Assembly: GCA_973895155.1 (NCBI GenBank)
Contig: OZ316892.1
Location: 3,289,223 to 3,353,222 of the forward strand
Direction of reading: 5' to 3'
Source of the DNA: Marsupella aquatica
Taxonomy: Eukaryota > Plantae > Marchantiophyta
Length of the DNA stretch: 64,000 nucleotides
Within the stretch, counting starts at the first letter, position 1; each line of letters opens with the position of its first letter. Shown piece after piece: positions 37,536-59,849 of the stretch. Below the pieces are notes generated by a model that was not told the DNA's origin, did not search any database, and saw only the letters and a program-made list of their open reading frames with translations. The position numbers and the translations under genes were made by a program.

Positions 37536-37715
37536 AAATCAAATAATAATACACTTTTAATGAATAGGCTGATTTTGGTGAATCATAGCCACAATTAAAA
37601 TTGAGGTGTTGGTGGAGAAATTGTATTAGGGGATCAGTTTTGTGTGTGGGCTCAACATACCAAAAGTATGTGTGCTCTGCATCCTTGTGTGGCCATTCCA
37701 ATTCATTGCAGTAGC

Positions 37716-37859
37716 AAATGCCTTTGTACCTTAAATGCTAAATATATTTTACTTTCTGTGCAGTCTGCTAAATTGTAGAGTCTATCTAAATGCCTTTGTA
37801 CCTTAAATGCTAAATATATTTTACTTTCTGTGCAGTCTGCTAAATTGTAGAGTCTATCT
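37716..37859 (+). repeat. Perfect 72-bp tandem duplication
   Basis: AAATGCCTTTGTACC...AGAGTCTATCT at 37716-37787 and 37788-37859. Confidence 0.92.
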
Positions 37860-37870
37860 CATGCGCAGGC

Positions 37871-38551
37871 ATGGCACGGCCTAAAATTCAAGCCAAAAAG
37901 CGTGTGACAGAGGTGAGAAACACAGGTGTACTTGGGGCAGATGCTACTAACTTCTTTGCAAGTCAGATTTTCCAGAAGGCAGCTCATTGTTGTGCCATTT
38001 GTGACGATGGTGGGGGCCTGGTCATTTGTGAGGGCCCTTGCATGAGGCATTTCCACCTCAACCCGGAGTTTGACCTTGCTGCAGAAAACAACTGTCCAGG
38101 GGTGGGCCTCCCGTCAACACACCAGGGAGACTGGATGTGCACTGATTGTTTGGAGAAGCAGGCTAAGTGTGCACAGTGTGGGAAGTTGGGATCCTATGAG
38201 GGCTCTGTTGATGCTGCAGCAAATGTTAGGAAATGTCCAGACCATTTTTGTGTGAGATTTTTCTGTTTTGAGTGTTTGCCTGCTCATGCCACAGCTTGCC
38301 CACTTCATAGGTGCAAGGCATGTGGTGAGCATGATGATGACTACTGGACTGACATAGTCCACTGTGCTAGGTGTCCCACTATGTGGCACTATCATTGCCT
38401 GAAAGATCATCAAGCAGAGGGTTATGCTTGTGACAGAGAAATCTATGATCACTCTGCACATGGTGTTGATTGATGGATATTTTATTGTCATCGCCATGCC
38501 ATTGATCCTACCTCGCGCACTCCTGTGAGAGATCACATATCTTGGCTGTGA
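37871..38551 (+). pseudogene. Stand-alone EDM2/NSD-type composite PHD-finger gene with one premature stop
   Basis: CAICDDGG..CEGPCMRHFH..CxxC..CAQCGKLGS..CPLHRCKAC..CARCPTMWHYHCL. After TGA at 38471 the frame continues WIFYCHRHAIDPTSRTPVRDHISW, matching the EDM2 IYC..H.ID....TPVRDH motif. Confidence 0.82.
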
Positions 38552-39137
38552 AGCTGAACATTGTACATGCACAGTGCACCTGATGTGGATGTACTATTTT
38601 TTGAGATTGCAGAGATTCCAATTTTGAAAAGGAGTTGGGTAGGTGAGTTTATATAGGCAGCACTTATCTTGTGCTCTGGCGTCAGTGGCTCGGTACATGC
38701 CTATACAAACTTATCCTTACAAGCCTTCTTGGAAGTATTTAGGCTGAGTGGTCATTTTCATAAACACTTTCATCAAACTGCTAAATTAAAACAGGACTTC
38801 TAAGTTGTAAGCGTATAAATTATCAGGCATGCAATTAATCAAATTGCCCTATAAGTTTGTCATTGAATGTATCCTCCTTTACAACAAAATATGTATGTGC
38901 CATGACAAGTTGGTTGCACTTCATTTCACCACGGATATGGATTTTGTAGTATATATTCAAACAATGTCCTGCATCCGTGCAGGTGCCTAGTACGTATTGT
39001 TCACATATCCCTTGTACCTATCAAAATCGGACCTGAGCACCAGTGGGCCAGATCAACTCAAAAAGCAGGAATTTTGTTGTCCTTGTATTGTCAGGTGAAC
39101 CCATTCTTCCAAAATTCACTGTCATCACGTAGGGTGT

Positions 39138-40016
39138 GTGTACATGGAGCCTGGTAAACGTAGAAAGTGTGACCACCCAGCAGTGTTTACAGGGGTCAGA
39201 GCGATTTTGGTCCATGGCCAGCATGGGTTGACCAAAGTGCATTGGCCAATTGTACAGAAACGATTCTCTGAGCTCCATGGCACTGTAGTTCAGGACATCA
39301 CTCCAGAGACTACACATGTTGTTGCAGGGACATGGCTATCAGTGATAAAGAAGTGGTCATGGTCCTACATGAATTCTGCAATTACTAAGCAAGGCCTAAA
39401 AGTAGTTGAGGCCTCTTGGATCACAGATTCCATAGCACATAAGATTGTACAGGATACTGAGCAATATGAGTTGTGGGAGGATGAAGAAGCTACTGCATCA
39501 GCTTGGGCTGAACAAGAAGTCTGGGAAGCAAAGGCACGGCTTGCTGATCTCCAATATGGACCTGTACTCAACAAAGGACAGAGCTCTACAAGGCTGAAGA
39601 GTATGTTGGCTGAGGAGACGAAGCAACCAACCCCCATTCTGAAAGGGCTGAGCATGGTATTTGTGGAGGCGGGAATTGGAGAGGTTAAGTGCAAAGTGTA
39701 CAAGTCCACAGTGCTTGACCTAGGTGGGACAGTGGAGGAGAATATAACAGAGGACACCACTCATGTCATTACTAAGTCATATCCCAAAGCCTGCCGCAAG
39801 TTTGGGAAGGGAGACATTCGCTTTTATGTCATGTCCCATAATGTGTTTGTGGTTTCATATGCTTGGCTTGTGGAATCAGTAGCAGCTGGGAAGCGTCAAA
39901 ACCCAATGGACTATGATCTTTTTGAGGCCTGGCCACGGAAGGGTCAAGATCCTTACAGAGAGGACTATGAGACAACAAGTGAGGAATGGGTCATTAGCGA
40001 TTCTGAATCAGAGTGA
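39138..40016 (+). CDS. Tandem BRCT-domain protein
   Basis: Two repeats: VFTGVRAILV..GTVVQDITPETTHVV..VVEASWITDS..YEL and ILKGLSMVFV..LGGTVEENITEDTTHVI..VVSYAWLVES..YDL. Confidence 0.82.
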   Translation: MYMEPGKRRKCDHPAVFTGVRAILVHGQHGLTKVHWPIVQKRFSELHGTVVQDITPETTHVVAGTWLSVIKKWSWSYMNSAITKQGLKVVEASWITDSIAHKIVQDTEQYELWEDEEATASAWAEQEVWEAKARLADLQYGPVLNKGQSSTRLKSMLAEETKQPTPILKGLSMVFVEAGIGEVKCKVYKSTVLDLGGTVEENITEDTTHVITKSYPKACRKFGKGDIRFYVMSHNVFVVSYAWLVESVAAGKRQNPMDYDLFEAWPRKGQDPYREDYETTSEEWVISDSESE

Positions 40017-40449
40017 GGAGTAGTAGCATCAGTTTGGACACAAGTTTTTTTGTATAAATCAGATCATTGAAATAAATGTGATCTTTGAACTAATGTACCT
40101 TGTTATGGTTGGTGGCAGTTGGGCTTATTTTACTGTTGGCGGATTGTTGTTTCCTGCTGCCTGGGGGTGTCACTGTAAACGTACATGCAAAGGCGGTACA
40201 TTTGAGGACAGCAGAGGAGGTGGTGACACCCTCCAACATTTAGGAATTTTGTGTCATTCACTTGACAATAGGTACACTACTTGCGAACCTGTTTTTTTCT
40301 TTTGGGGTGGTTTAGGGTTTGTGAGAATTTAGTACACGTTATGTTAACTCTTTTGGCAGATACAGTCAGGGATATATGGAACACAAATACCACCATTAGG
40401 CATCCTTGTTCACTGCTGTCCATGACTGCAGAGCTCCCAGCCTGTTACA

Positions 40450-43400
40450 ATGCACCCTGGTCACCACCCTCCCCAGACCCAGCCCAGGGCACAGGCACTG
40501 CCTTTGCATCATCCCACAAGGATATCACGCCATGATAATAAGCTTTGGCAGCGTGAAAGGTTACGAACCAGACTTTCAGGAGCCAGTAGGATGAGATGTC
40601 CTTGTGCAATCTGCCAAGGATCCCGTACCAGGGGTCTGAATGAGGTTTGGCGGCATATCGCGGTTCATGGAAGAGATCCACGACATCGAGTTTGGAATGA
40701 TCCTGCAGAGGAAGATTCTTCCGACGAGGAGTGGAGGTTAGAATTTGATGCTGCCAATGCTGCAAGACGGGCAAGTGAGGTTCTGCCTGGTGCATTTGAA
40801 AATGTTGTAGCTGGTCTCTGTGGGTTGTCAGCTCTCCAACGGGATGGTGCTCAGGCAGCACCACGTGACGAAGGAATTCATGTGGAAGAGATGGTGAGAG
40901 ACATCTTCCAAGACTTGGATGCATTTCATGATGGGCTGGACAACGAAGAGGATACGGCTGCAGATGCAAGTGTGCCCCCTGTCGAAGAGCCTCTTGATGA
41001 GTTTGAGATAGGGCAGGAAACCCCTGGGCATGATGGGATGTTTGGCTCTCCCCTGCAAATACAGGAAGGCAGGAAGTCTTTGTACCTCGGTAGCAAATGT
41101 TCTAAACTGGGATTTGTCATCATGTTCCTGAACATTTGCGGCAACCACAATGTCCCCAACATTTTGGTTTCTGAGTTGTTGGCATTCTTGCGAACAACTG
41201 TGCTACCAGATGGTAATATTTTGCCCAAGAACATGTACGAGGCAAAAAGATGCATATCTAATCTTGGATTGAACTATGATTCGATCCATGCCTGTCCTGA
41301 TGGGCATGTTCTTTTCAGAAAGGAGTATAAAGAATCGTTGATATGCCCTAAGTGTGGGAAGCACAGGTATCGGAACTCAGGAAAGTCTATGGTTCCCGCC
41401 AAGGTACTTCGTCATTTTCCACTCATTCCCAGAATTCAGCGGATGTTCAGAAGCCGTGCCATCTCGGAGATGATGACTTGGGCAACTGACAAGAAAAGTG
41501 ATGATGGGCTACAACGACATGCTGCAGATTCAAGGCAATGGAAACTCATAGATGAGATGTATCCCGAATTTGCTGCTGAGCCGAGGAATGTCAGACTTGG
41601 GCTGTCATTGGATGGGGTAAACCCATTTGGAGACAAGAACAACAAATTTTCGTGCTGGCCTGTAACTATTTTGAATTATAACCTTCCTCCTTGGATGACT
41701 ACAAAGCGATTTTTTGTTCTGATGGTCCTACTGATACCAGGGCCAGACAGTGCTGTATCTGCCAACATAGATGTGTTTCTGGCTCCCCTAGTGGAGGAAT
41801 TGAGAAAGCTTTGGGAGGAAGGAGTTCTCACATATGATGTCCTACAGAGGCTTGGGAGGTTAAACCCATTCATCCTTAGAGCCATTGTCATTCTGACTAT
41901 AGCTGACTACCCAGCCCATGGGATGATATCAGGCCAAACAACAAAAGGATATTGTGCTTGTACTATCTGTGGGTGCAATGTCACCAGTGAGTACTCCAGA
42001 GCCCTGCAGAAAGTGATATACATGGGCCATCGTCGTTTTCTGAAGGCAGATCACCCTTACAGAGAAAGACAGGCACTGATTGCACACTTTGGCAATGAGA
42101 TTGAGCAACGTGGACCCCCGACACGAGTGACCAAAGAGGAGATCAGGCAGTGGGGAGCACTGAGGGATGACTATATCAAACGAGGGGGCAGGGAAGATGG
42201 AGTGAGTGATCCAATAAAGCGATATGGTGTAAAAAGACTGAGCATATTGGACTTGGAGCTCAAGTACTGGAGGGTAAGCCTCTTGGAGTTGATGCTAATT
42301 GGGATACATGTTTTGGTTCAGAGCATGTGCATTCATTTCGAAGAGAGAGACTAAACTTGAGGCATTTCCTGACGCTTTTGCATTGCAACGATGCAGGAGT
42401 TTGAGCCAAGCAAACATAACATTGATGTTATGCACATTGAAAAGAATATTTGTGAGAGTCTACTCAGATTCTTGTGTGGAGAGAAAGACACTGGTTCAGT
42501 GAGATTGGATCTTGAACAGAGGGGAATGAAACCCCATCTTTGGTTGAGGCCACATGCCCACAGAGCTGATGTGCTCTTGAAGTACCAAGCGCCCTATGTT
42601 CTGACAGACACAGAGTGGGAACTATTTGTGCAGAGGTTGAGTTCTTTGAAGGTTCCTTCAAACTATGGCAGTGCTTTCAAGAAGCATATCATGACTAGAA
42701 AGCTTGGTAGTATGAAAAGCCATGACTACCATATGTTGATGCAACAGGTGTTGCCTTTATGCCTGAGGGGCCTGTTGCAGAAGCCTGTTCGTACTGTGAT
42801 CATGCGACTCAGTGATGTGTTTCGTCGTATTTGTGTGAAGGTTTGGGATGAAACACACTTCCCACAACTGACATAAGATGTCGCTCAGGTGCTGTGTGAC
42901 CTGGAGATTTATTTTCCTCCCGCATTTTTTGATGTCATGACCCACCTACTTGTCCATGTTGTGGAAGAGCTACACCAATTTGGGCCTGTGAGTGCTCGTT
43001 GGTTGTACCCTTTGGAACGGTACATGAAGCTACTCAAAGGTCACGTGAGAACATATTACAAACCTGAAGCAAGCATGGCTAAAGGTTACATCAAGGATGA
43101 GACTCTGGGATTTCTGACCGAATACATAGCACAATATGAGCATGTGAAGACCAGGGTGTGGAATTCTGATGAGGAGGAAGGGGTGATAGGTGAAGTACTG
43201 GAAGGGGCTGCAACCACAAAGAACCTGACCATATCTATGAGAGACTTGGCACATGACTTTGTATTGCACAACACTGTGGTGATGGAACCCTGGATACAGT
43301 GAGTGCATACATGTGCTATAATCCAGTTCATGAGCTTAAATGTTGTGTTCGTGTGGTTTTCTCCTTCAGCCTGTTCATGTTTACCCAAGCTAATGCTGTG

Positions 43401-44181
43401 TGGTTGTTCGTTCAGGGAGTATGAGTCATTGAAGGCGGCCCATCCCACTGTAGGAACAACTTTTCCAGGTTTCATGGAGTGGATCAGAGTGGCAATTAGA
43501 GAGCATCACGAGACCCACCCAGACATGGATGCAGATGTTTACCTACTGTCTAATGCCCCTAGCCTGAAAGTGAAGACTTACAAACGGATGAGAGCATATG
43601 GGAATCACTTCCGAGTGAAGGATGGTGATAGTGCCTACAGGGTGACGAATGACTGCGGGCTCATCACTGTATTTGAGCAACAGAGCCACAATCACGACAG
43701 GGCCTGGATGGAGATGGGATATGTGGGAGAATTAGTTGACATATGGGCTCTGGACTATGGGGCGGTGTCCAGTCCTGTGATTCTTATGAAAGGTTCATGG
43801 GTGCGGCAGGATTGGCTTGGTAACAGGGCTACCATGAAGAGAGACAACGACGGTTTCTTGCTGGCCAATTTTAGAGGGAAATTGCCCGAATGGTCTGAGC
43901 CATTTGTGTTTCCTAGTCAGGTGGAGCAAGCTTTCTTCCTGGATGTGGAAGACTCCCCAGGTTGGCGTGTAGTGTGTCATAAACAGGCCAGGCAACGTCG
44001 GATGAAAGGATCAAACCTTGAGTTTCATTTACACTCTCATAGTGCCTTTGATCGTCGGCGTTCAGACCAAGTGCCTGTAGTTCATGATAGCGGGGACTTC
44101 ATTCCTGTGACAAGGGTAGATGCATTTGCTGAAGGAGGCGAATTCAGAGATGCAGATGCCAACAGTGTGCCTGTGCCATGA
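40450..44181 (+). pseudogene. CACTA TnpD transposase; exons 40450-42273, 42397-43298, 43416-44181; one in-frame stop
   Basis: CPCAIC, IHACPDGH..CPKC, RNVRLGLSLDGVNP, YNLPPW, IADYPA, DVMHIEKN, MKSHDYH, FPPAFFD.MTHLLVH, ARWLYPLERY and EPFVFPSQVEQAFF match the Transposase_21/DUF4218/DUF4216 pattern. TAA at 42874. Confidence 0.93.
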
Positions 44182-44337
44182 GTAATGTGAATTGTTTGCA
44201 TGGACATTAGTGAGGGGAAGGATGTGTAATAAAGTAATTCTGAAGCAACACAGATGTATGGATGGATGCCTGGTGATTGTGGTTGCATTGTGTTATACGG
44301 GGTGACCATAGATGACATGTTTTTGTGGTCCAGTAGG

Positions 44338-47300
44338 ATGGAACAGAGTGACACAAAGATGTGTGAGTATGAAAGGAAAGCTATGGAACAACGAGCATAC
44401 GTGAAAGCCAAAATCGCAGAACTGGATCTGGAAAAGGATGTGGCTGAATTGTAAGGGAACGATTCTCAACTACACCCCTCCGCTGAGTTTGTGTGACATG
44501 AATAGTTCAATGTGGCACTGAAATTGTGACTGTATTCTCATATTGGAATGTCGCAGAGCCACAGCATTTTCAAAGAAACAAAAGGAGTACGCAAGAAGGG
44601 TGACCAGCACTATCTCTGGGCCTGTGCGTCGGAGTGACAGGTTGAGCAAGAAGGTCGTACCTACAATGGCAGAATGTGGAGATGACATTGATGCTGCACA
44701 GGTGGGTGCAGACACTAGACAAGAAGATGCAGATGATGAGTATTTTCCAGAGGAAATGGATGAGGATGGGGGTTATGAAGATGAATACATTGCAGAGCAG
44801 CCCCAAAAGAAACATGTAAGTAGTTTTCCCAACAAGGTTTTGAGTTAAAAACTCTTGTTTAGAGGTTTCATATGTTCAGTACTACACATATGTACCTTGC
44901 TTAGTTCCTGACATTGTAGTTGGTGATGTGATGTAGCGTCCTGCCAGTTCTGTTTTGCCTTCGAAGCCTGTGCATGCACCATACCAGCAGGGGGGGCTGA
45001 CCTCTGATCAAGGTTGGCAAGGTGGTAGTAGTGGTAGATCCCAGGCTGGTGCCCAATACTATGGCAGGGGGCAAGCTCTAGGTTATGCCCGTGGTAGAGG
45101 CAGAGCAGGTCTAAACCCACAATCTCGTGGGTATGGACGTCCACCTCAACCATGGGGATGTGAGTATATATCTATATGCCAGTTCTTTGTGAAGGCATGG
45201 CACTCCTGAATTTCAGACTGCATATCAATTTTTGACATTGTTTGGGATGTATTGGATTCAGACAACATGAAATTCTGTCCACCTGCCATTGCATGCAGAT
45301 TCTGCCCAACCTGATTGGGCAAATGCTAGTAATGATCAGTTCCAATGTCCACAAGGACAGACATGGGTTGAACCAGGTTGGGAGGATGGTGGTGGGTCGT
45401 GGAATGAACAAGGTTGGGAAGGTGGTGAAGGTAATTGGCAGGGATATCAAAATTCAGTACCTACAAATGCTGGAAGAGGAGCAGGTAATGTCTGATCTTG
45501 TCAGCAATGGAAGAACTCATTATATGTGGAGTCCATTCACGTGGGGGGGACTCTGCACATGTATAATGATAGAAAATGTATGTGTGCAGGTTGGACAGTC
45601 GAACCATCGACTCAAGTATTCACTAATGCCCCTATGCAGATGCAGCACGGAAGGGGGACAGGTATGTTGGTGAATGTTCAGTTGTTTTCCTACAGTTAGT
45701 TTTCAGTACATATGTTTGCACACACATACCTAGAAAGTGACATCATCCGGCCCCTGTACTAGGCTGGACAGGTGGTCCAGGGTCGCAACAATTTCAGAGT
45801 GCAGTCCCTGCACAGGCATCTACAGGCAGAGCTACAGGTATGTATGTTTGAAGAATTTTTCTTGAAGTGAAGCATTGAATGTTGCCGTCATCCATTCTGC
45901 TATATGTAGTTCTCAAGCATGAATGGCATTGTATTTTCCCAGGTGGCTTCAGAACCCCAGGTAGGGTGAATGAAGGGGTGGCCAATACAACGCCCAGTAC
46001 TACCGAGAGCAGTGCACGAGGGGAGGTGACAAAGAAAGGGAACGTAAAGTTGAATGAGAGACAATGGGTGGATGCTGAGTGTCCTCGCAAGAACCGATGA
46101 CATGCTGATTTGAAAGCTGAAGTATTGCGTTGGTTAGATGTGAGTGTTATTAATTTTAAAAAACAGCATCCAAAAGATTGGAAGACTGTATGTGAAAATG
46201 TTGCTGCCAAATGGAATTATGTGGGCAGTGATGATGGCGTGGACATAGGTTGCCTAGAGAGTACAGCAGGTAAAATTATCAAGCAAGAGAGGTGGAGAAT
46301 GCATAAGGCTTGGAAGGAAGGTGGGGAGAAGCCAGATATGCCTCCACCAGCCAGTTGTGATGATAAAGTGTGGGCAAGGTTAGTAGCTTATTTTGTAACA
46401 GATGCTTCAAAAAAGAAGAGTTCACAGATGACCGAGGCCAGGTTGAGTGTTCAGAACCCTAATCTGACAGGAAGGACCGGCACTGCACCGACAGCTAAAC
46501 GTTTGGTAAGAATGAATGGCCTAGCTATGTAATTTATGCTACACTATGTACTATTTTTTAGTGTAAACCCATACATGTAAACTTTGTTTTTTAGTGTACG
46601 TTCCCTGAATATTGATCGATAACTTGTGTTTGCCATGCATGTGCAGAAAGCCCAATTGGGGCAAAGCCCTTCAAAAGAAGAGTTGAGGGCTGAAATTGTG
46701 AACACCCGGGCTCAAGAGGGTGCATCTGAATCCTCCAAGCATGTAAGTTATATGAGTTCTGATTGGTAATTGAATGACCTGCGTTGAATTTCAGGTGTAC
46801 ACTGTATATAACATTGATTGTGCATATATTGCCCAACATTTCATATGGAGTGATTGAACCTATACCCCTGTGTCATGTAGGGAGGTGGATCTTCACTTAC
46901 AGAGATAAGTGGTTGTTTGAAGGCTGTCGAAACATGTCTTCCAGAGATCAATGAACGTTTGAATTCATTGACTGACTTGTTCCATGTGAACTTCAAGACA
47001 TTAATGGAAGCTGTTGTGTCGGTGAGAGATAAAATTGATTCCAATTCTGCAGGAGTTCCACCATCACCACTTGAGGTGGCAAAGTCGATGCACTCTTCTG
47101 GCATGCCAACGACATGTAGGCTTGAGGTGGATGATATCAATGTTGGGGCAAATGAGGATATCAGCAAGCATGACAATGATACCATTGAGCCAGATTCATG
47201 CTATGTAGATCTTGACTCCATTGCAGAGATAAATGATTTGCAGAATGTATCATTCTCAATGACAGGTGTGCCTCTTGTTGAGATAAATCCAACCAAAGAG

Positions 47301-47774: not shown

Positions 47775-50424
47775 CAATGTCATGCCATTATTTGTTTGTA
47801 GTGTGAGTCATGTTATGTAGATTTTAGATGTCAAGAAGCAGTACAAGAATCATGTCCTCTTGGAGATTCATAGTATCATGCATGTGCTTTCAGTTATCTC
47901 ATCCTACAGTCATCAATTATGAGTTCCTATTTTGTCTAAATTACATTGATCACATTGTAAACTATTCCATTGGAATTCAAATGATCTTCATTTTTTAGCA
48001 AGATTGTGATTGTGTTTAATTCTTATGAATGTTTTATGTAGGATACGCTTATATGATGCTTTGTTTCATGTGGATGTCATTCATGCTATGTTCATTTCTT
48101 GTATTCAATGTGTTATATTTCTAAAGTTAGAACATCAGGTTTCTATGTATTGTAATGTCGAGTGCTCTCTCTCCTTATGAACTGTCCCTCTGTGTTCATT
48201 AGTCATGGTTATAACTTGCATGTGAACCTTATTAGTTATAAACATGAGTATATAGAGTCCCAAATGGTTCTGTTGTGTGACGCGGGCCAGGGTCTCCATT
48301 GGTCTCTCCTGTGATACTAAATAGTCACACGCTAGTCGTTGTTGAATGCGGGTAAGTCATGTATGTGACTTACGATGTGACTCGCTGAAGTCATATTGCA
48401 GTCACGTCGAAACAAGGCTAGACTCCACAATAAAGTCACAGATCAGTCACAAATGGGTATCAAGCAAGTTGCAAAGCCCAGTATCAATAGTGACTTCCAT
48501 TTTTTGGTCTCAACTTTTGCAACTCCAAGGGTCACAGCGTGGGTCAAGTCACGTTGAGTCACAATGAAGTCACATGAGCCAAAATGAGTCATATATTGCG
48601 GTCTCAGTTCACCTCGGATTCTTCTAGTGCTTGTTGGTTGTTGGATTCCAGGGGAGTAGTTGAGCCCATAGTTGAGGTGTCCTTGGTGGCCATTCAGCGG
48701 AGATTGAGGTGCAGGACAAGGAGACAAGGAGAATTGATGCAAGATTGAATGTTCTGGTCAGGGAGAGCACAATGTGATTGATTTGAGGTGGAAAATTTGT
48801 GTGCATCGCTGGTGGATTGTGGGTGCTGCTCAGGGATCCAAGGAGTGATACCAGGGCAAGTGGGCACCCCAAGGTTGAGTATTGGAGAGATCAGAGTGTT
48901 GTTGGAATCCACGAGATAGATTTTAGGGCTAAAATGAGTGCCCAGGATACAATGTCAAAAATTACTGACTTACTACTAGAGACCAGGGAGGAGCTACTGG
49001 AGTAAAAATTGAAGGTAGGAGCTAGGAGGAGGTACCCATGGAGGCCAAAAGCGAATTCAGTTCAGGAGTGATGCATAGAGGTTTGTGAGAACTTACCTAG
49101 GTAGTGAGTAGGACATTTAGAATAGATGAGCAACAAGTTAGCCAAGTAAATTTCAGTTTCAAGCTTTGCAAGAGAGTAATTAGATGCATTGGATGCTGTG
49201 ATAGGAGGTAGAGAATAGACATGAAGGAGAGTAGCTCCTGAGAGTAAGTGAGCTCTCAAGTTTCAGCTATTTAGTTGTGCAAATTTTCAGTTTCAGGGGC
49301 TTGTATGTTGTTGGCTAGTGGAAGCTAGCTATGTGCATTTTCGCTCAAGCCAAGTTGATCAGCAGCTGCAGTGTCCCAACTCTAGGAAAGTAGTGTGTGT
49401 ATGAGAGAGGGTTCAGCCTGGAAGATTCACGTGTGTTGGAAGCTTGAATTGTGAGTTACATAAAGCAGCCCTCTTGACTTATCTCACTCTATTGTCCTGT
49501 TTTTTATGTTGTATATGACTGGTGGGTTTGTATTATCTTCCATTCAGTCTGATGTTGAAGGTTCAAAAGTGTTAATTGGTTGTGCATAGTAGACTATAGC
49601 ACGTTCTCATCCGAAAATGCCCAAGTATGGATTTGGTCATTATTAGTCACAAACACAACTACATTTTACGGCTGATTAACGGACTTTTAGAAGACGTTAA
49701 TCATGACGTATATGGCCAGCGGAGGAAAGACCTCATTCACGACGTTAATAGAGCAACGTTAATTACCATGTTTGGGGAGACGCTCTTTACCACGTCCAGA
49801 ACATTGTTCTTAACGTCGTACAATAGGAGGTATATGATTTTACAACGTGTCAGGCTACGTAAAATATCCCGTAAAATATACCCAACGCTCGTGTTTAAGT
49901 TTACCCATAAACGTCGTGTCAGGCTACGTAATGAAATATTAACCACGTCTAGTACGTCGTAATGTGCAAGGCACTAAACGTCGTATTATTTTAGCGTCGT
50001 CCGTGGCCGGTAAATTATGACCTCTTTTGAGACGTATGGGTAAGTTGACATAGTAGGGGACGATGTATCGTGCTCTTGTTGTGCGACGTACGTTGGCTTA
50101 TGTAGGGCTCAACGATGTACTATGGTGGTTAAAGGTCTTATAAAGGAGGACGTATACGGGAGTACATACGTCCTATTACACATTGCACTGTCTGGGTGGG
50201 GTCCTTGGTAGGGTTCAACTCACACACAATATAACCATGTGTTTTTACATATTGTAACCCGGAATGAGGTGCCACCACAAATGGGTGGCCTGAATCAAAA
50301 TGGCAAAAAATATGTACATAATGCATGGAGGACCTCTTGCTACTGAAATACCTACAACCTAAAGTCATCGAGAATGGGGCCTATCACGTCCCGATCCTCC
50401 GCCTCATCGCCGACGCAACTGATA

Positions 50425-52516
50425 CTACTGGGCATCCTGCTCTGAGGCACTGCTATTGCCTTCTGGTTCCGGTGCAGCCGAGGGTGGAGCCTTGCCTCTA
50501 GGTTTTGGCACTATCTGCCTGGTGCTACGTGTTACCCTAGTGGACCGCCTCTCACCACTCCTCCTTCTCCTCTCTCTATCTCTCCCTCTCTCTCTATCTC
50601 TATCTCCCTCCTCCCTCTGTCTCTCCCTTCCTTGTCCTCTGGCCCTATGAGTCTCTAGTGCAGGGAAAAGGTCACGAGAAGTGGAGCCCTGCTGACCGCA
50701 AGGTACTGGGTCCTCCTCCTGGGTACCCTCCTCCAGGGCTACAGTGTTGGGCTCCTCATCCTCCTCAATGGGCCGTGCTACTAAACCTTCTGGTGCAGTC
50801 CAATCCACCTATGCACAAGATACAATTTCAGTCTAGGTTTGCATAAGATACAGTTTCAGTCTAGGTCTATGGAATGGTACTGAACAAGCTAGCACACTTA
50901 CCGGGTGGTCTTCCAAAATAGAGTCAAGCTTTGCCCATAGGGCTGCCGGGCCATATCGCTTAGAGTATAGCCGCTCCTGCTCACTCGGCTTGGCATCTCG
51001 GCCATACTTCCGCTTCTGTAGCAAAGGGAAGTTACGTCGTTTAGGGCGATGTTATTTACCTATCATCATACGACGTTACTAATACATACGTCGTCCATTA
51101 AGACGTTTAGGGGGACTCCATAGTATTAATGTTGACAAGACAACATTAATACAGTGCTAACGTAGTTAGAGGCGAGGTACTACTAAGAAAACATCGTAAG
51201 AGGGAAGGTAATGTGCGGCCAAGACGACGTTAATACTAAAAAATGACGTAAAGCACAGGATTTCACCGCAGCAGCACACGACCACATAATGCAGACTTCA
51301 ATGAGTATAGAGTGAGTCACTGCACTTACATAGGTTGCAAGAAATCCTCCCCATCCTCCCTGCCCCCAAAAATTAGTCACCTTCTTGCCACTCGCTTTTC
51401 AAACAGTAGTGGCCTTGTCTCCCATATGCACTCGCTTGCCAACTGGGGTATCTAGGGCTGCTTCCAATTCGGAGACAATCAATTTGAAGTCCTCTTCACT
51501 CATCCCATCAGGTTTCTTGTAATCCCCTGTTCTCAAGCATCTCAGTTTTTGGACCTTGGCTCTCCACCTAAAACGCCGATCAGCTAGGTGATTCACGATC
51601 TTCTTCCTAATGTGGTGGTAGTCAATCTCTCGCCCATTTCTGAATCCAGCCTGCATGTCATTCAGGAGCAATTGGAACTTCTTCTGGTTATGCACAAGCT
51701 CCTTCCAAGTAGTCCAACCGGGACAGTGTTTAGCTACGCACGTCTGCACTCTGTTCGTGAGTGCTTTCTCATCCATGACGTCCGGCCTAGCATCAAAAGA
51801 GGCAAGGGTGATGGTGGGAAGGTGCTCCCTGTTGGCAAAAGCAGTTGCAGCTTGCTGAGAAGGACGTCGCCACTTTGGAGGAAACAATCGTGAGTGGTCT
51901 TCTCTCCTCTCTGCTCTTATATGTTGATCTCCCCTATGTCTCTTGCTAGAAGTGCCTGCATTGTGGTCATTGGATCCTTTCCCCTTTTGCCTTCTCCTTT
52001 CAGTGCTGCTATTTGACGAAGAACGAGATCGCCTCCTCCTCCTCCTATGTTGCCGATGGTCCCTCCTATCATCTTTTGGCCTGTATCTCTCATGTGGGAT
52101 TGTCACTTGACTCTTGATAGGAGTTCAAGCTACTGCCTGAGAATCTAGTTGAATCCTAGTGAAGGCAGGATCATCCCAACCATCGTCTGGTAGACTCGGG
52201 AACGAAGGCAGCATATCAATCAATGCCCCATCAAGCTCGGGCGTGGATTCAGGCACTTAATCGTGGCCCCCTCCTCAATCTTGGCCCCCTCCTCGTCGGT
52301 AGGAGTGTTGGCCTCAATACTCTCCAGGTATTCTATAAACCTGGACTCCTTTGTTCCTTGTCCTCTCATGAATTGCCAACTGTGGTTGAATGCTTGAACT
52401 AGTGAATGTGTCGAACGTAGGGCTCAATGCACCTTCTCCAACTCCTCTGGATCCTCCAGACCCACCTTCAGTGCATCAAAGTTCACACTACAGGGAAGAT
52501 AGCCTGGATACAACAT
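50425..52516 (-). pseudogene. Degraded multi-exon accessory (TnpA-like) gene of the CACAA element
   Basis: ORF pieces 51399-52106 (Arg-rich, then WTTWKEL..IVNHLADRRFRWR..KPDGMSEEDF), about 50850-51020 and 50425-50808. Stops in the 5' part. Confidence 0.5.
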
Positions 52517-52916
52517 GGCAGACTATTCTGTGAGCAATTATGTGAGGTAGAGGAGGCAAGGAGAGGTAAGGACTAGAGGTGGGGAATGTCGAATGTGAGT
52601 CACATTCAAACACTCCCTCGATACTCCCCTGATGTTTCCCAAAGGAAATGACCGGGGATGCCTAACCTTGCGGATCCGCCATTTTCCTGATTTTATGTTG
52701 TTACAGACGTCGTTACGTGAAACGACGTACATAATACATCATACTTAATGACATTAATCTAGATAAACGTCGTCCTTTGTGTTTTAAAGGTCATTGTTTG
52801 CGGGTCCATTGACGACGTTAAATGTTAGGGTTGCTTCGAAAAACAATGCTAAGGCCTTGTAACGTATTGTATGGCATTGTACCTTAGGGTTAGGGTTTGT
52901 GTGGTAGGTTTAGGGT

Positions 52917-54452
52917 TTGGATCCTTCCCTACGCATTAATCAAAGACGGTTCAATTTGTTGCAGGGCATGGTGATCTATGCATCGGACTCTCTGTCTGAT
53001 GAGAGAGATGATGGGGATACGAGTCTTGGCTCCAGATACCGGCATCGTGATAGGGGTAGAGACTATTCGCCGGATAGGAGGGATCATTCGCTGGTTAGGA
53101 GGTGGGACTATACGCTGGATAGGTGGAGGGATGACTCACTGGATAGGAGGGATTATTTGCCGCAGAGGAGGGATTATTCACTAGAGAGCAGGGGTCGTGA
53201 GTCATTGCCCCGAAGGACGACTAGTGGATCTCGATGTCATCACCATCCCAGTCATGAGGACGGAAGGAGAGGAGCCGCCATCATCGGTCACACCGTCGTC
53301 GATGATCACGTGAGCCCCAGGCATACAGCTCACCTTCGCCAGTGGAGGAGGGGTTTGGAGCGGCCATGGCTGCTCTTCATGGTATTGGACCAGTCCGCAA
53401 GATGCCTTGCCCTTGTAGCACAATGCAAGGGCGTTGTATCTCACGAGAGCACTACCATCATTAGCCACTTAGGGATCCACGGTCGTTATGTTCCACCGAC
53501 ACCAGAGGTAAGTTTTATCCTTTTGCACAACCATTTTGAGTAACTTTAACTTTTACTAGGTTGGGGTAGGTTGGCTTCTTGAGCAATGTTCATGTTTCTC
53601 GCTTTCTGAAATTTTGTTGCATACATGTGGAACAGATTCATATTGTACGGTCTCCCACTAAGGACCGCATGAGAGAGGTTGCACGTCGAGCGCTCTCTGC
53701 ACCGGTCCCCCCATCGGCACTAGCTAGATGCCACCTTACGGGCAATAGACCGTGTATTTGATAGGGTGAGGGTGGCATAGGTGCACCCTATTGAGAGGGG
53801 AGTAGTGGTCAGTACTAGACCACGGTTGTTGGAGTCTCGTCCGCCTAGGATGAGGCCACCCCGTTGCCCTTTTCTTGATGCATCTAGTGCCCGGGAACCG
53901 AGAGAGTTACGTGGGAGAGCCTTGGACATCATAAAGGACTCATTTCCTACCCAATTTGGGCTCCCATTGGACCTTCCAATCAGGGAACCTATCATAGTCT
54001 GGGGTCGCCCTTGGGTCCTCCTTCCCTCCACATTGGGCCCCAACGTAGGATTAGGATTATTTTCACTTGTAGATATTGTGGTCCCTGATGGTTGTGAGCC
54101 CGAGGACTTGCCTCAACTCTTTCCATTCTATGGGCCAAAGTATTCTGCACAGCATTGGCGCATCTTGTCTCGACAATGTCTGACCTTTGGTCGATATGGC
54201 ATGTCTGTCAAGCTAGACCCTAGGTATGCTCAGATAGATGGTTATCCACCCCGCACTGGAAACTTGGCAGGTTACATCAATAGCACTGTGGGTTGTCGGC
54301 GTTTAGGTTTTAGGCCAAACGCTGAGTGGCACGAGTACCATGACCAGACCCATCCTCGTTTGCCACAGGCTTGTACTCATTACATCTTGACCCATGCTAG
54401 CCGCACCATTCGAGCAGGGGAAGAGATTTTTGTAGATTATGATTGGCATTGA
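52917..54452 (+). pseudogene. SET-domain gene with an Arg/Asp-rich first exon; SET region 53781-54452
   Basis: PSTLGPNVGLGLFS, FPFYG, IDG..GNLAGYINS, PNAEW and ASRTIRAGEEIFVDY are the SET signature motifs in order. Stops lie just upstream (about 53760-53780). Confidence 0.75.
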
Positions 54453-54907
54453 GGATGGACATGATACATTCAGAATATATGGACCCATTGTTGCATATTG
54501 CATTAAATCATATTTAATTATTTGTTTGATTATAATGTTGTATTAAATAATGATTTTAACAATTGTAGGATGGTGCATACATTACCCCCTGGGGAATCAC
54601 TCGTTGGATTATTAGAACGGGGTGCGAACAAATGAAGGTTATTTTTAATCTTGTTGGTGTAATAATTATAATCAAAAATTTGTACTAAGGCGTTTACAAA
54701 TCCAATTTGGGTAAAAATATTAGTTTTAATATTCAGCAAGGTATTTAAAAATTTGTCAAAGTCATATAATAAAGGGTACAAGGGTATTTTTAATTGAATT
54801 TATTTATTAATTTATTTTTTCAAATTTCATTGGTTTGTTGTCACGTGTTTTAGGGGTTTTACTCTAAGTGATTCCCCAGGGACATTACCCCTACACCTCA
54901 CCTATCC

Positions 54908-57900
54908 ATGATGACGATGTCAGCGCGTGACTTTCACCTACAGGCCACTCTACACTTTTATGATGAGGAAGATGTTGAGGGGGATAGTGACCATGAGGAG
55001 TACCATGATGCATATGATGGAGACTTTGATGAGGACAATGGAGATGAGGGGGATGCACCCATTCTTGAAGAGGAAGCTTTTGCCCACCTTGTGGACATTC
55101 ACTTTGGACCACATGCACCTCAGGGCGAGAGGCCTACCATGGAAGTAGACTAGGAAGATTGGGACCAGTTGGAAATGGAAGCCAGAACTCCACTCTTCCT
55201 GGATTCTCCATCATCACGGTAAGTCTCATGATTGAATAGTATTATGTGTCGACCATTACTTACCACACCCAATGTCATACCTCAAACTAATTTCATACAA
55301 TTCCCTGGTTTCACAAATGCAGGTTGGGTGCCACTTTGTTGATGTTGAATTTGCAGGGAGTTTTCAACACTTCAGACGTCCATACAGATGCACTATTCCA
55401 GCTATTCCACAAAAAACTCTTGCCCCAACCAAACACTCTCCCTAGGTGTGTGAGGGAAGCTAAGAAGTTGTTAACCTCAATTGGATTGGCTTTAGAGACT
55501 ATCCACATGTGTCCAAGTGGTTGCATCCTTTATAGAGGGACATACTCTGAGCATACAGAGTGCCCAGAGGCACAATGTAAGCTTCCACGGTACTGACCGG
55601 ATACCATTGGCAAAAAGATCCTAGAGAAGGTGGTGTCCTCCTCCTCCTGGCGGTGTTATGTTTGTTAGAACGTAGTTTTGCCCATTTTCCTCGTCATTTC
55701 CGACGTACGCACACGTACGTCCTTTCTAAAGATGTAACTTACGTATCCAAATCACCAGTTAGTTTTTACGTCGTCTACTACATGGTACACATATATTTAC
55801 GTTGTTAATTAAGACGTAAACTGAAGTAGTCGACGTTACTAACATCGCTGAGAAACTTTACGTCGTATGTTACATTGTACCGGTGTATTTACGTCGTGTG
55901 AGATGACATTAACTTTTATTTAACGTCGAAGTGATGCTTGTAACATTGTTTATGGCAGGTCTTAAGGTATTTCTCGATCACACCCTGACTATAGCATCTT
56001 TATCGACGGAAACATTTATCAGCACTTCAAACATGGCATGCTGAGAACGAACAAATCTCCACCAGGGATTATGCGGTATCACCACGATAGTCCAGCATGG
56101 AAGCACATTGATAGCACTTGGCCGGATTTTTCTAGGGAGCCAAGGAACGTTCGATTGGGGTTAGCAATAGATGGGGTAAACCCATACAAGCAATGACGGA
56201 AGCCTAAGTCCATATGGCCAGTTCTTTTGCTCAATCAAAATATCCCTCCATGGTTGGCGATGAAGAAGGGTCATTTTCTCCTCCTTGCTATCATTCCGGG
56301 TCCTCAGGCCTGTAAAAATCCAGACATTTGTTTGGCTCCAGCTCATGAAGAGTTGCAGAAGCTATGGGAGTTTGGGGCAGTGACCACAGATGTGACTCGT
56401 ACACCGGATAATGGGAGGACATTTAATATGAGAGCAATGATCACCCATTGCACCACGGATGGTCCAGGTAATTCTCAGTCATAGAAATAATTGAGACATA
56501 CATTGTGCATGGTTCTATTGCATGTGACAATGGTTTTTGGCCTGAATGTTTTAAATGTCATTGATAGGTATGGGCACAATATCTGGCTTGAAAGTGGCCG
56601 GTTATTCAGCTTGCCCTTCATGTGGTCCTGAGTTGCATGGGAGATACTCCAAGCGTCTGCACAAAACCACATATGAGGGCAGCCAGTAGGGTTCGTTTGC
56701 CAATGGACGATATATTGCGACATAACACCACACATTGGGCTGAGACTGATTTTAGGCCATGTCCCAATGGGCCTTCAGCTGAGGGTCAAATTCAAATGGC
56801 GGAGAAAGTGGAGGCAAAATTACTTCAACCTAAGCACTGTGGTGTCAATCGTCGCTCAGCTTTGTGGGACTTGCCTTATTGGAGGGTAAGTAAAATCAGA
56901 TTGGACCTATTTTAAGTTAGTGACTTGTAGTATTCTATTTATGAGTTTCTCACTAGCACAACCTGGTTCTTCATCTTGTAGAGGCTCCAGATCCGATGGT
57001 TGTTGGACCCCATGCATATTGAAGTAAATGTTGCCAAGAACCTGGTGAAGCACATTTATGGGATGAATGATACTCGTGGGGTCCGAGAGGATGCAAAGTA
57101 GGTTGGAGTGGTCAAGAGTTGTTGGATAACTCGAGATGGGGAGAAGCCACCTGCTCCTTGGGTTTTGCCAAAACAGATTTTGAAGGAGATGAACGGGATG
57201 ATATGTGAAATGAAATTCCCTAGCCATTACGGAGCCGGCTTCCGTGGGTGCACTACAAGGGAAGACCACATACCCCCAATCGGCTTGAAGTCTCACGATT
57301 ATCACAAGTTGATTCAGCATGTGTTACCTATTGTCTTGCATTGTTGTGATGATTCTAGAGAGCGACACCTACTCCGACATACAATATATGAGTTGTGCTC
57401 CATTTTCAGGTTAGCATAGTCTTGTTGGCATATATTTATGATATGATCATTGCATATGTTTATCATACTAATAATTTGACAAAATCTTGAGTACCCCTTA
57501 CAGGTGGTATGCGCCAAGGAAATAAAGGAGAGTGAGATTCCCGAGATGAGGGAACGGTCTGCCGTGTTATGTGCAATATGGAGAAGGTGTTTCCCCCATG
57601 TATTTTTGACATGCAGTTGCATTTGCTATGTCATCTGGTGGATGAGGTAGCCATTGCTGGTCCAGTGCATGCACGGTGGATGTATTGGGTAGAGCGGTTC
57701 ATGAAAGTGCTAAAGTCTTGGGTGCACCAACCCGCTCGACCAGAGGGAAGTATGGCAACAGGGTATATTATGTCGGAGTGCCTGTTCTACTCAAGCGGGG
57801 TGATAGGGAGTTTGGACACACAAGCTCCCACAGCTTGGGAAGAGGCACAAGATGATGACAATGGTGGGTTGCGAGTGATGGGCGCGTCAAAGAAGCGATC

Positions 57901-58708
57901 ATTACATGATGACATTTTTCGCCAACAGATCCACAATTATGTGTTGGAGAACCGCACCGAGATGTCAGATTGGAGAGAGTTGTATAGGTAGGGACGTAAT
58001 CCTTCATGTTGAGTCCTACTTAGATTTGAAATGTACATTCAAGGTGGTTGGCACAAATTGGGATCTAATGTATATGTGACCCAGTACTTGCAGGGCATGG
58101 GTGGAGCAGCAGCAGATAGGGGCAGCACGAGATTGTGTTCATGCATCATTTCACATATGGGCCTTGGACCGCATGGAGGGGCTCCTTGCAATGCATGGCC
58201 CTACATTCATTCCCATTGATGTACAGAACATCATTAGGGGGCCTTCAATGTGGGCTATGAGTCATACTCACATGTATGAGTCAGGGCACCACTTTCGGAC
58301 TTGGAGGACGGACCATATGAAGAAGAGTACTTGTAACTCTGGAGTATATATGGTGACCGATGTAGGTGATGTTGAGGTTCCTTATTGTGGCATTGTCTTG
58401 GATATTTGGATGTTAATTTTGGCTCGTTTACCACCACGGTGTTAGAGGTGAGGTGGCACAAGTCCATCATGTCACCTCCAACAAGAGCTACCATGGTGAA
58501 GGATGAGTGTGGATTTTATTATGTGGACACGACCCGTGTTGCACCAAGCGGGACTGAGTTTAGTGACACTATAGTTTTTCCTAGCCAAGTGGATCAATGC
58601 ATTATGGTTCCGATGCACAACATGGGAGGATGGTCCATTGTGATTCCCATCTTTCCATGCCGCAGGAAGGGCTTCATGCCATCAGCTATCGTAGACAATG
58701 AGGATTGA
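54908..58708 (+). pseudogene. CACTA TnpD transposase of the CACAA element, with multiple stops and frameshifts
   Basis: IHMCPSGC..CP, PRNVRLGLAIDGVNP, NIPPW, LDPMHIE.NV, GLKSHDYH, FPPCIFDMQLHLL.HL, GPVHARWMYWVERFMK, IVFPSQVDQ. Confidence 0.92.
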
Positions 58709-59357
58709 CATGATAGACTCACTATCCCCATTTGTATTGACTGTTGTCACGGTTCGCATATAAACAGACATATTTCATGGCCTAGGCATCTGTCAATTTG
58801 CAGAGTGGGATGGGCTTGTTAATCACTTGGTAAAGAACAAGTAATAACCATACATTTATGGACATGATCCCTTGGCCTTCTGCTACAAGGGATAACTGTC
58901 ATTAACGTCATCCGAAACAATTTACGTCGATACCAAATTCTCTAATGTCATTTATAGCTACGCAAATTTGACGTAATGGTAGTTAATGTCGTGTACCGAA
59001 CCATCAGCCGACGTTATAAGGGTTTATTAACGTCCTTCTATATGTCATAACACGGTGAAAACGACATTCTTAACGATGTATGGCGCAATGAAAATATATT
59101 ACCTTGAGTAGAACGACGTTAATAATTAGATACGATGGTTCAGTCAATGTACTAAATTTTCTTCGACATTAATCACAGGAAAAAGATACAACATTCAAAC
59201 CACACAATTGTTGCGACAAATAGCACTCATGGATGTGTTTATTGCTACACATAGACCAAATAGAGATACACAATAGCTCTACCATCCTTTCTACTGCAAA
59301 TGTAGCCTACATGAGTCATGGTCATCCCTCTACACCCTCCCTCCAGACTGATGTTGA

Positions 59358-59849
59358 TTAAGGAGTCCCTTCTCCAGACCAGTAGTACTCCTCGTCCGCT
59401 TTCCTCTTCTTGTACGAAGCACGCCTTTGGCTGGCATTCCAATTCTTCCGCACAACAGCTTCACCGGCCTGTAGCCTCTGAGCCTCCACCTCGGCTGCAC
59501 AACTTTCCTTGTAATCAAACATAGCAATCTGAAGTTCAGTGGGTGACAGGTCACATTTAGACAAGGTGGGAGGGTAGGCCTCACCATCATCATCCTCGGG
59601 CGAATCTTCTAGACCACGATCACTGCTCGGATGCAACAAGAACTCTTCAGCGAAATGCTCGATCAAGCCAGCATAGTCATTGAAGTGCTCCACAACCTGT
59701 TTCCACGTATTTGCAATCAAGAAATCGGTCTGTGAGGTACATAGCTTGTCAACAAGCCCTCCACGGCAAAAGAACCCTCGAACCATCTTCTCCTCCTCAC
59801 CAAGCGGGAGGAAACAACAATGCACATTTGCAAAGAACTTCTGCACCAT
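59358..59849 (-). CDS. Possible partial BRCT-like protein
   Basis: FFANVHCCFLP..FFCRGGLVDKLCTSQTDFLIA resembles the N-terminal half of a BRCT domain; the C-terminal Trp motif is not evident. Confidence 0.4.
   Translation of the reverse strand: MVQKFFANVHCCFLPLGEEEKMVRGFFCRGGLVDKLCTSQTDFLIANTWKQVVEHFNDYAGLIEHFAEEFLLHPSSDRGLEDSPEDDDGEAYPPTLSKCDLSPTELQIAMFDYKESCAAEVEAQRLQAGEAVVRKNWNASQRRASYKKRKADEEYYWSGEGTP

What the first reader, a model, noticed from the sequence alone, without database searches (positions are those of the whole stretch)
37871..59849. Three unrelated nested transposons each carry chromatin or repair cargo
Seen: the Sola-like element carries MTase-like, ParB-like and NIF domains; the inner CACTA carries EDM2-type PHD and 2xBRCT; the CACAA element carries SET and a BRCT-like ORF. 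Inference: convergent acquisition of readers, writers and repair adaptors points to a lineage-wide transposon counter-silencing toolkit rather than random gene capture. Nesting might let elements share these functions.
Basis: inference. Interest (0 to 1): 0.7.

Follow-up and report, generated by a model that had tools for sequence, protein, structure and literature searches.

The report
Transposons carrying their own chromatin genes
In a plant genome (likely a bryophyte), three stacked jumping-gene families each carry extra genes resembling chromatin readers or writers; these are long-kept parts of each family rather than random host scraps and likely help each element manage its own silencing, though two of the three designs have precedents in algae and the stacking itself looks accidental.

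Summary
The elements are real. A 44-kb CACTA shell (16736-60824) holds two CACTA/EnSpm elements side by side (18049-48629; CACAA-ended 49654-60658). A Sola-like element (24486-37573) sits inside the first. All have TIRs and TSDs; empty sites exist for Sola and CACAA. Corrections: the two CACTAs are related; 'ParB-like' and 'MTase-like' are exons of one 1,396-aa gene whose catalytic motif is degenerate; ParB and the CACAA 'BRCT-like' ORF stay unconfirmed; NIF lacks the phosphatase motif. The cargo is not random. The SET exon lies in the transposase's first intron, in frame with its zinc-finger exon; a distant locus shares this layout and shows purifying selection. The EDM2-type triple PHD belongs to an old stand-alone clade and, with tandem BRCT, travels at transposase-level depth (about 100 times unique DNA). 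The Sola design matches Ectocarpus Sola1-1_Ec32. Counter-silencing is untested, the PHD/BRCT element is strongly CpG-depleted, and nesting is incidental. Verdict: family-specific accessory genes, a new variant of a known kind; the EDM2-like PHD plus BRCT CACTA is the part I found no report of.

The parts
16736..60824 (.). Outer non-autonomous CACTA shell holding the two CACTA elements
   Evidence: TIR 16/16, TSD TTT
18049..48629 (+). Inner CACTA/EnSpm element (PHD + BRCT family)
   Evidence: TIR 14/16, TSD CTT; Tnp2
24486..37573 (.). Sola-like DNA transposon inserted in the inner CACTA
   Evidence: TIR 25/26, TSD TTTG; empty-site loose ends at 24485/37574 in runs X1, X2; 12 AATGTACAC subterminal motifs
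24868..25926 (-). NIF/FCP1-like HAD-fold gene, motif DLNKI instead of DxDx(T/V)
   Evidence: Pfam PF03031 E 1.8e-15; TIGR02245 E 3.3e-15; translation
26144..31304 (-). One three-exon gene (31304-31178, 30711-29021, 28516-26144), 1,396 aa: ParB-like region (unconfirmed) fused to a beta-class amino-methyltransferase fold with degenerate motif IV (DFSR)
   Evidence: Open frame across predicted GT-AG joints; Calypogeia CAM6082376.1 reads through the second joint; fold Z 13.7 to M.MboIIA
30775..33078 (.). Two arrays (34 copies, mostly 27-bp period) of a 25-bp palindrome TTGGAYTNGGATNATCCNARTCCAA in the divergent promoter/intron zone; 7 more copies at 25954, 26749 and 28579-28897
   Evidence: 41 of 41 matches in the window lie inside Sola; Markov control mean 0.1
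33161..36958 (+). Sola-like transposase, open 1,265-codon frame
   Evidence: DUF7869 E 2.9e-43
37871..38551 (+). Stand-alone EDM2-type triple-PHD gene, 226 codons; TGA at 38471 is private to this copy
   Evidence: other copies read C at 38471
39144..40016 (+). Tandem-BRCT gene, 290 aa, open
   Evidence: Pfam BRCT E 2.1e-13, two stretches; translation
40450..44181 (+). TnpD/Tnp2 transposase of the inner CACTA; stop at 42874 private to this copy
   Evidence: Transposase_21 E 2.9e-70, DUF4218, DUF4216, Transpos_assoc
46101..47774 (+). TnpA-like exons of the inner CACTA
   Evidence: Transposase_24 E 7.8e-5, below cut-off
49654..60658 (+). CACAA-ended CACTA/EnSpm element, decayed copy
   Evidence: TIR 14/16, TSD AAA; empty-site joint 49650-60659 in X1, X4, X5; 28 of 32 ACGTCG motifs of the window
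52968..53507 (+). TnpD exon 1: R/S/D-rich, ending in a CPCxxCKG-like zinc-finger (Transpos_assoc) broken by an indel here
   Evidence: the matching exon of L001 hits PF13963, E 4.7e-4
53636..54452 (+). SET-domain terminal exon inside TnpD intron 1, in frame with exon 1; N-terminal part frameshifted in this copy
54569..58708 (+). Remaining TnpD exons of the CACAA element, with stops, frameshifts and a 304-bp MITE at 54579-54882
59358..59924 (-).
   Evidence: no hit; Atlas under 0.9 to other families; weak 6.7-bit hint

Best explanation
Each of the three transposon families carries its own long-kept accessory gene set, and these proteins likely act on their own family's DNA or chromatin to keep it transcribed and mobile, while the stacking of the copies is likely a chance pile-up in heterochromatin. 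Sola: a ParB-like/methylase-fold protein is predicted to bind the 41 palindromes found only in this element, most of them at the shared promoter region; with its catalytic loop altered it would more likely shield or read the DNA than methylate it. CACAA-type CACTA: alternative splicing of TnpD exon 1 would make either transposase or a zinc-finger-SET fusion, which would tether a lysine-methyltransferase fold to the element. Inner CACTA: a reader-only copy of the EDM2 PHD module would bind heterochromatic histone tails and favour full-length transcripts or compete with host EDM2, and the tandem BRCT would likely link to repair of excision breaks. Shown: anatomy, conservation, selection on SET, independence of the insertions. 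Inferred: every molecular activity.
For: Cargo travels with each family. In run X1, whose flank contigs match the window with 0 differences at depth 13-17, contigs over the PHD-BRCT spacer, BRCT and TnpD have depth 1641, 1799 and 1554. Contigs over MTase, ParB-like exon and Sola transposase have depth 431, 383 and 455. This is a rough ratio; the tool warns depth is no copy count. The stops in PHD and TnpD are private to this copy. SET: 10 relatives at 48-65% identity. L001 shows the same exon1-SET-exon2 order with in-frame splice sites. Over 211 codons, identity is 60/67/35% at codon positions 1/2/3 and 14 of 45 four-fold sites agree, while both introns are not clearly above shuffle (z 1.1, 1.7). 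Contigs in X1 and X2 bridge exon 1 and SET. PHD: 8 short proteins form one branch (SH-aLRT 99-100, quick trees) at 40-81% identity with most zinc ligands kept. MTase: 3 relatives at 37-45%, beta-class fold. Published parallels propose self-binding and self-modification: Ectocarpus Sola1-1_Ec32 (PMC12477816) and Bostrychia Plavaka PAG2/PAG3 with inverted-repeat arrays (bioRxiv 2025.02.11.637652).
Against: No activity, binding or expression data; no RNA holder was listed. Motif IV is DFSR/DFGR/DFTR in 4 of 4 MTases, the SET lacks the His of the NHS motif in 11 of 11, and NIF reads DLNKI, so some 'writers' may be dead. CpG observed/expected is 0.20-0.38 in the inner CACTA genes against 0.75 and 1.10 in two flanking genes, so that family has been methylated despite its PHD/BRCT. 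No listed contig bridges PHD, BRCT and TnpD; their linkage in other copies rests on depth. Genomic context is unknown for the 7 other short PHD proteins and 3 MTase relatives. BRCT and NIF were not searched for relatives. ParB is unconfirmed.
Confidence: 0.5

Rival explanations
1. The accessory genes serve transposition mechanics rather than silencing: the PHD guides integration to a chromatin state, BRCT recruits repair to excision breaks, and the ParB-like protein pairs or compacts the element.
For: BRCT is a repair adaptor (Pfam; weak BRCA1 matches). Catalytic motifs are degenerate. The insertions pile up inside other transposons. CpG loss shows that methylation was not prevented.
Against: Most palindromes lie at the internal promoter and introns, not at the ends, where a separate AATGTACAC motif sits. 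The SET keeps its GxG motif and C-terminal Tyr.
Confidence: 0.25
2. The proteins are self-limiting regulators: they repress their own family (binding the promoter array, writing a repressive mark) to hold copy number down.
For: 34 palindromes flank the divergent promoter region of Sola. SET folds can write repressive marks, and EDM2 loss changes transposon silencing in a locus-dependent way (PMC3632883 abstract).
Against: The PHD/BRCT family reached about 100 times unique depth. Known precedents (VANC) activate rather than repress.
Confidence: 0.1
3. Neutral capture: Pack-type fragments of host genes hitchhike in successful elements.
For: CACTA elements are known to carry host sequence (PMC10741241). 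This copy's PHD and SET are broken. BRCT and NIF have no selection test here.
Against: Codon-position bias on SET. The PHD clade is far from host EDM2 (33-35% identity) yet keeps its ligands. MTase is conserved to 37% across lineages and of prokaryotic type. The breaks are private to this copy.
Confidence: 0.1
4. One reading: one lineage-wide counter-silencing toolkit shared between elements through nesting.
For: Three neighbouring families all carry such genes. Accessory genes move between transposon families in red algae.
Against: Empty sites show the nest is not a fixed unit. Depths of the three families differ about 4- to 15-fold. The palindrome occurs only in Sola, which points to family-specific action.
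Confidence: 0.05

Closest known systems
Sola1-1_Ec32 of Ectocarpus (PMC12477816; abstract, passages and part 2 of section 5 read; figures and supplements not seen)
   Same: Giant Sola element with an opposite-strand gene fusing a ParB-like domain to an N4C/N6A methyltransferase domain, proposed to bind and modify its own element.
   Different: Here in a land plant; 13.1 kb against 21.5 kb; 1,396 aa against 1,104 aa; motif IV degenerate; extra NIF gene; explicit 41-copy palindrome. Sequence homology to the algal protein was not tested.
Plavaka (EnSpm/CACTA) accessory genes PAG2/PAG3 of Bostrychia (bioRxiv 10.1101/2025.02.11.637652; passages read, supplements closed)
   Same: PF01555 methylase, PF00856 SET and ParB-like domains on EnSpm-superfamily elements, with inverted-repeat arrays beside the ParB-like gene, and cargo that moves between families.
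   Different: There MTase is fused to SET and ParB to a 2OG oxygenase on one element. Here MTase is fused to the ParB-like part on Sola, and SET is an alternative exon of TnpD on a CACTA.
HarbingerS and oomycete MuDR elements with SET genes; fungal TET/JBP transposons (PMC12730594; introduction and passages read)
   Same: DNA transposons carrying chromatin or DNA-modifying enzymes as accessory genes.
   Different: Other superfamilies and hosts; no shared zinc-finger exon described in what I read.
VANC of VANDAL (Mutator-like) elements (passages)
   Same: Works-like model: an element-encoded protein recognises repeats in its own family and alters its silencing.
   Different: No VANC-type domain was found here, and loss of methylation is not shown.
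Arabidopsis EDM2 / ASI1-AIPP1-EDM2 complex (PMC3632883 abstract; PMC10241880 passages)
   Same: Triple-PHD module, including the C-terminal 'YC.H.I...TP.RDHI' extension.
   Different: 226 aa against about 1,250; no RFD domain or C-terminal part; PHD2 is about 20 residues shorter with a His-to-Cys ligand change; lacks the acidic stretch before the first Cys; sits on a transposon.

Membership tests
CACTA/EnSpm (inner element) | Termini CACTA..TAGTG, short TIR, 3-bp TSD (PMC10741241) | tested here: met
   TIR 14/16, TSD CTT
CACTA/EnSpm (inner element) | TnpD/Tnp2 transposase and TnpA-like gene | tested here: met
   Transposase_21 E 2.9e-70; Transposase_24 E 7.8e-5, below cut-off
CACTA/EnSpm (CACAA element) | Canonical CACTA or CACTG terminal pentamer | tested here: not met
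   Ends are CACAA..TTGTG; filed as a CACAA-ended variant
CACTA/EnSpm (CACAA element) | 3-bp TSD and Tnp2 transposase | tested here: met
   TSD AAA with empty site; Transposase_21 and DUF4218 pieces
Sola | TIRs and 4-bp TSD (PMC10741241) | tested here: met
   25/26 TIR, TSD TTTG, empty site
Sola | Sola-type DDD transposase | tested here: inconclusive
   DUF7869 hit and acidic motifs at residues 662, 825, 863; equating DUF7869 with Sola is recalled; no Sola reference sequence was aligned
Beta-class N4C/N6A DNA methyltransferase | Fold and motif order (IV before I) | tested here: met
   Foldseek E 2.9e-5, VIA Z 13.7, rmsd 3.6 over 183 residues to 1g60; model mean pLDDT 49
Beta-class N4C/N6A DNA methyltransferase | Catalytic motif IV (D/N/S)PP(Y/F/W) | tested here: not met
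   DFSR, DFSR, DFGR, DFTR. Position inferred from strand 236-240 and the 232-to-387 register with METTL3 (METTL3 D395 recalled)
Beta-class N4C/N6A DNA methyltransferase | Methyl transfer to DNA | not testable with these tools
   needs assay or SMRT kinetics
ParB/Srx fold | Profile or structural match to ParB | tested here: inconclusive
   No hit; one search gave only E 3 hypotheticals; Atlas 0.95-0.96 to fungal DUF3723 and unnamed clusters; 'ISGQHS' resembles the ParB arginine-patch region by recall only; not folded
SET lysine methyltransferase | SET profile, GxG motif, C-terminal Tyr | tested here: met
   PF00856 above cut-off; G(L/V)GLF-type motif and terminal (D/S/A)Y in 11 of 11; a low-confidence model returned only SET domains, none at E<=0.001
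SET lysine methyltransferase | NHS motif (recalled) | tested here: not met
   Y/F-I/V-N-S without His in 11 of 11; activity is open
EDM2 | NSD/EDM2-type triple PHD with EDM2 C-terminal extension | tested here: met
EDM2 | Full architecture (N-terminal DNMT1-RFD, long C-terminal part) | tested here: not met
   EDM2 hits carry PF12047; the element's gene is 226 codons
FCP1/SCP phosphatase | DxDx(T/V) motif (recalled) | tested here: not met
   DLNKI
BRCT (ORF 59358-59924) | BRCT profile or fold match | tested here: inconclusive
   negative; weak
VANC-type anti-silencing system | Sequence-specific binding to own repeats and family-specific hypomethylation | not testable with these tools
   Only the repeat half is seen

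The most novel reading that the evidence does not exclude
A roughly 100-copy CACTA family encodes a reader-only mimic of EDM2, a host factor that lets RNA polymerase II read through heterochromatin. The mimic comes from an old transposon-borne clade, and the element would use it, with a tandem-BRCT partner, to get full-length transcripts from silenced chromatin or to jam host EDM2. This would be a histone-reader-based anti-silencing route, distinct from VANC, sitting beside sister families that use a spliced zinc-finger-SET writer and a methylase-fold shield. Bryophyte DNA transposons would then be a large untapped set of chromatin counter-measures.
Probability: 0.25. Interest if true: 0.8.

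Novelty: new variant of a known kind. Interest (0 to 1): 0.5.

Why it matters
The one class cited in the papers I read as shown to bind and modify its own sequence is VANDAL/VANC. The ParB-methylase and SET accessory genes of algae are untested predictions. This locus extends those designs to land plants and adds an EDM2-type PHD plus BRCT set that my searches did not find in print. It also gives concrete handles: a defined 25-bp palindrome, a defined alternative splice, and a 226-aa reader. These make the question 'do transposon accessory genes rewrite their own chromatin?' testable in a bryophyte model.

Tried and rejected
No whole genome is held, so genome-wide enrichment and per-copy dN/dS were not possible. 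No RNA holder was listed among 11 runs. Viral-contig scans with the MTase, SET, PHD and Sola queries found no relative; nor did the prokaryote genome scan with the MTase or phage/plasmid tblastn with the ParB-like part. A giant-virus or recent bacterial origin therefore got no support, at limited sensitivity. The metagenome scan gave 1 locus from 101 candidates. I considered kinship with Marchantia DN4MT1: it has a TSPPY motif (bioRxiv 2021.02.12.428880, passages) and did not appear among the 3 hits; no direct alignment was made. I considered that the CACAA ORF 59358-59924 is a homologue of the inner BRCT gene: BLASTP E 1.5, phmmer E 0.08-0.1, left open. I considered that the PHD clade derives from a bryophyte EDM2-like paralogue (Calypogeia, Riccia, Marchantia): support 76 in the 139-row quick tree (14 of 153 rows dropped for short coverage), unresolved in the 33-row tree, and the clade test did not finish. 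The SET model was poor (pLDDT 43). Paper searches with no hit; searches listed no report of a PHD/EDM2- or BRCT-carrying CACTA, or of a land-plant Sola with a methylase gene, in titles and abstract starts; BRCT was never a search term. The original Sola paper was not held under the id I tried. PMC4738411 (passages) describes other ParB-linked adenine methylase clades, not this one. Earlier-finding look-ups by place and sequence were blank.
Full report
Setting. The window is eukaryotic, intron-bearing and CpG-depleted. The only named relative of the methylase-like protein is from the liverwort Calypogeia fissa, so a bryophyte host is likely; this is inferred, not shown. No genome is held.

Anatomy. 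A terminal-repeat scan gives four elements. An outer CACTA shell spans 16736-60824 (TIR 16/16, TSD TTT). Inside it lie a CACTA at 18049-48629 (14/16, CTT) and, beside it, a CACAA-ended element at 49654-60658 (14/16, AAA). A Sola-like element at 24486-37573 (25/26, TTTG) sits inside the first. Contigs of public runs show empty sites for Sola (loose ends at 24485 and 37574 in X1 and X2) and for the CACAA element (joint 49650-60659 in 3 of 4 runs). The nest is therefore not a fixed unit. The two CACTAs share a Tnp2 transposase (44% over 142 aa).

Sola cargo. The 'ParB-like' and 'MTase-like' ORFs join at a GT-AG intron into one frame; with a short first exon it is 1,396 aa. The Calypogeia protein reads across the same joint. 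The model matches beta-class amino-methyltransferases (Z 13.7 to M.MboIIA, then CcrM and HpyAVI). Motif I is DFFSGGQ, and motif IV is D-F-(S/G/T)-R in 4 of 4 sequences, so catalysis is doubtful. ParB could not be confirmed by any profile; the Atlas points to fungal DUF3723-like proteins. A 25-bp palindrome occurs 41 times at up to 5 mismatches, all inside Sola: 34 in two arrays between the divergent genes and 7 dispersed (control mean 0.1). The consensus came from the arrays, so the 7 dispersed copies are the independent part. NIF is a HAD-fold gene with DLNKI in place of DxDxT; nothing ties it to chromatin. The design is published for Ectocarpus Sola1-1_Ec32 (PMC12477816), and ParB-like genes beside inverted-repeat arrays for red-algal Plavaka.

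CACAA cargo. The SET region has 10 relatives at 48-65% identity, all on short contigs. They keep the GxG motif and terminal Tyr but lack the NHS histidine. The one metagenome locus found (L001, 51% identity) has the same order as the window: zinc-finger exon (PF13963), donor, in-frame SET terminal exon, acceptor, acidic TnpD exon 2. Identity at codon positions 1/2/3 is 60/67/35% over 211 codons, 14 of 45 four-fold sites agree, and the introns are near shuffle level. That is purifying selection on an exon embedded in the transposase gene. I reached this layout before seeing earlier scan notes on peat-moss elements that report the same; their RNA claim was not checked here. This copy is dead: indels in exon 1 and SET, stops in TnpD, and a MITE at 54579-54882. 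L001's SET also has a stop. The 'BRCT-like' ORF is unconfirmed.

Inner CACTA cargo. A 226-codon triple-PHD gene and a 290-aa tandem-BRCT gene precede TnpD. The PHD stop (38471) and the TnpD stop (42874) are absent from essentially all laid depth in 4 of 4 runs. A profile search found 335 proteins at E<=0.001. The best are short unannotated proteins from Logan, JGI and ENA, then EDM2 and bryophyte EDM2-like proteins. Eight short rows, the window's included, form one long branch (SH-aLRT 100 and 99 in quick trees of 139 of 153 rows and of 33 chosen rows). They are 40-81% identical to the window's protein, against 33-35% for host EDM2-type proteins, and share a shortened PHD2. The sister group is unresolved, and whether the other seven are transposon-borne is unknown. 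In X1, contig depths over the PHD-BRCT spacer, BRCT and TnpD are 1641, 1799 and 1554, against 13-17 for flank contigs with no differences from the window. Read cautiously, that is about 100 copies with cargo in most of them; Sola is about 25-30 and the CACAA family about 5-20. No listed contig bridges all three genes. EDM2 acts downstream of H3K9 and DNA methylation to suppress early polyadenylation in heterochromatic intragenic transposons (PMC10241880 passages), which makes a transposon-borne reader module meaningful.

Mechanism. Most likely (0.5) each set is a family-specific self-regulator that keeps its element expressed: palindrome binding for Sola, a tethered SET for the CACAA family, an EDM2 mimic plus repair adaptor for the inner CACTA. 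Against this: no activity or RNA data, degenerate catalytic motifs, and CpG observed/expected of 0.20-0.38 in the inner CACTA genes against 0.75 and 1.10 in two flanking genes, so that family has been methylated regardless. Rivals: transposition mechanics or targeting (0.25), self-repression (0.1), neutral capture (0.1, still open for BRCT and NIF), and sharing through nesting (0.05).

Novelty. Transposons with chromatin-modifying accessory genes are a known kind: VANC, HarbingerS and oomycete MuDR SET genes, TET/JBP elements, Plavaka PAGs, Sola1-1_Ec32. My ten paper searches showed no land-plant Sola with this gene and no CACTA with an EDM2-type PHD; BRCT was not a search term. The library lacks most subscription journals and Repbase reports, and supplements were not read. 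Verdict: observation partly confirmed, interpretation partly supported, new variant of a known kind, interest 0.5.

Noticed in passing
window 23530-24009 (+): 159-codon Cys-rich ORF in the left arm of the inner CACTA, no Pfam match above noise; its bin has the highest summed depth in 3 of 4 runs, so it may be a further accessory gene shared by several families.
   Followed up: partly
window 54579-54882: 304-bp MITE with GGGGAATCAC..GTGATTCCCC ends and a roughly 10-bp duplication, inserted in TnpD exon 2 of the CACAA element; very high depth in X2.
   Followed up: partly
window 51402-52124 (-): 241-codon ORF in the CACAA element that looks TnpA-like by eye; no Pfam hit.
   Followed up: no
window 37716-37859: Perfect 72-bp tandem duplication just upstream of the PHD start codon.
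   Followed up: no
window 48630-49653: About 1 kb between the two CACTAs that looks like an LTR fragment; contig depth 66 in X1 against 13-17 for unique flank.
   Followed up: no
window 59372-60699 and 61472: High-depth small repeats with many loose ends at 60321 and 61472, probably further MITEs.
   Followed up: no
window 63351-64000 (+): GC-rich, CpG-undepleted, intronless cytidine/deoxycytidylate deaminase gene (PF00383, E 1.7e-9), cut by the window end.
   Followed up: no
window 12819-13985 (+) and 1-300: Intronless protein kinase ORF (S6K-like by recall) with an 82%-identical partial copy at the window start.
   Followed up: no
window 2877-6895 (-) and 10470-10946 (+): Fragmented Copia gag-pol and a TALE-type homeobox exon in the left flank.
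   Followed up: no
MTase exon, residues 671-775 (window about 26190-26500, -): Small beta-rich C-terminal domain with pLDDT 70-84, conserved in 4 of 4 relatives, not covered by the fold matches.
   Followed up: no
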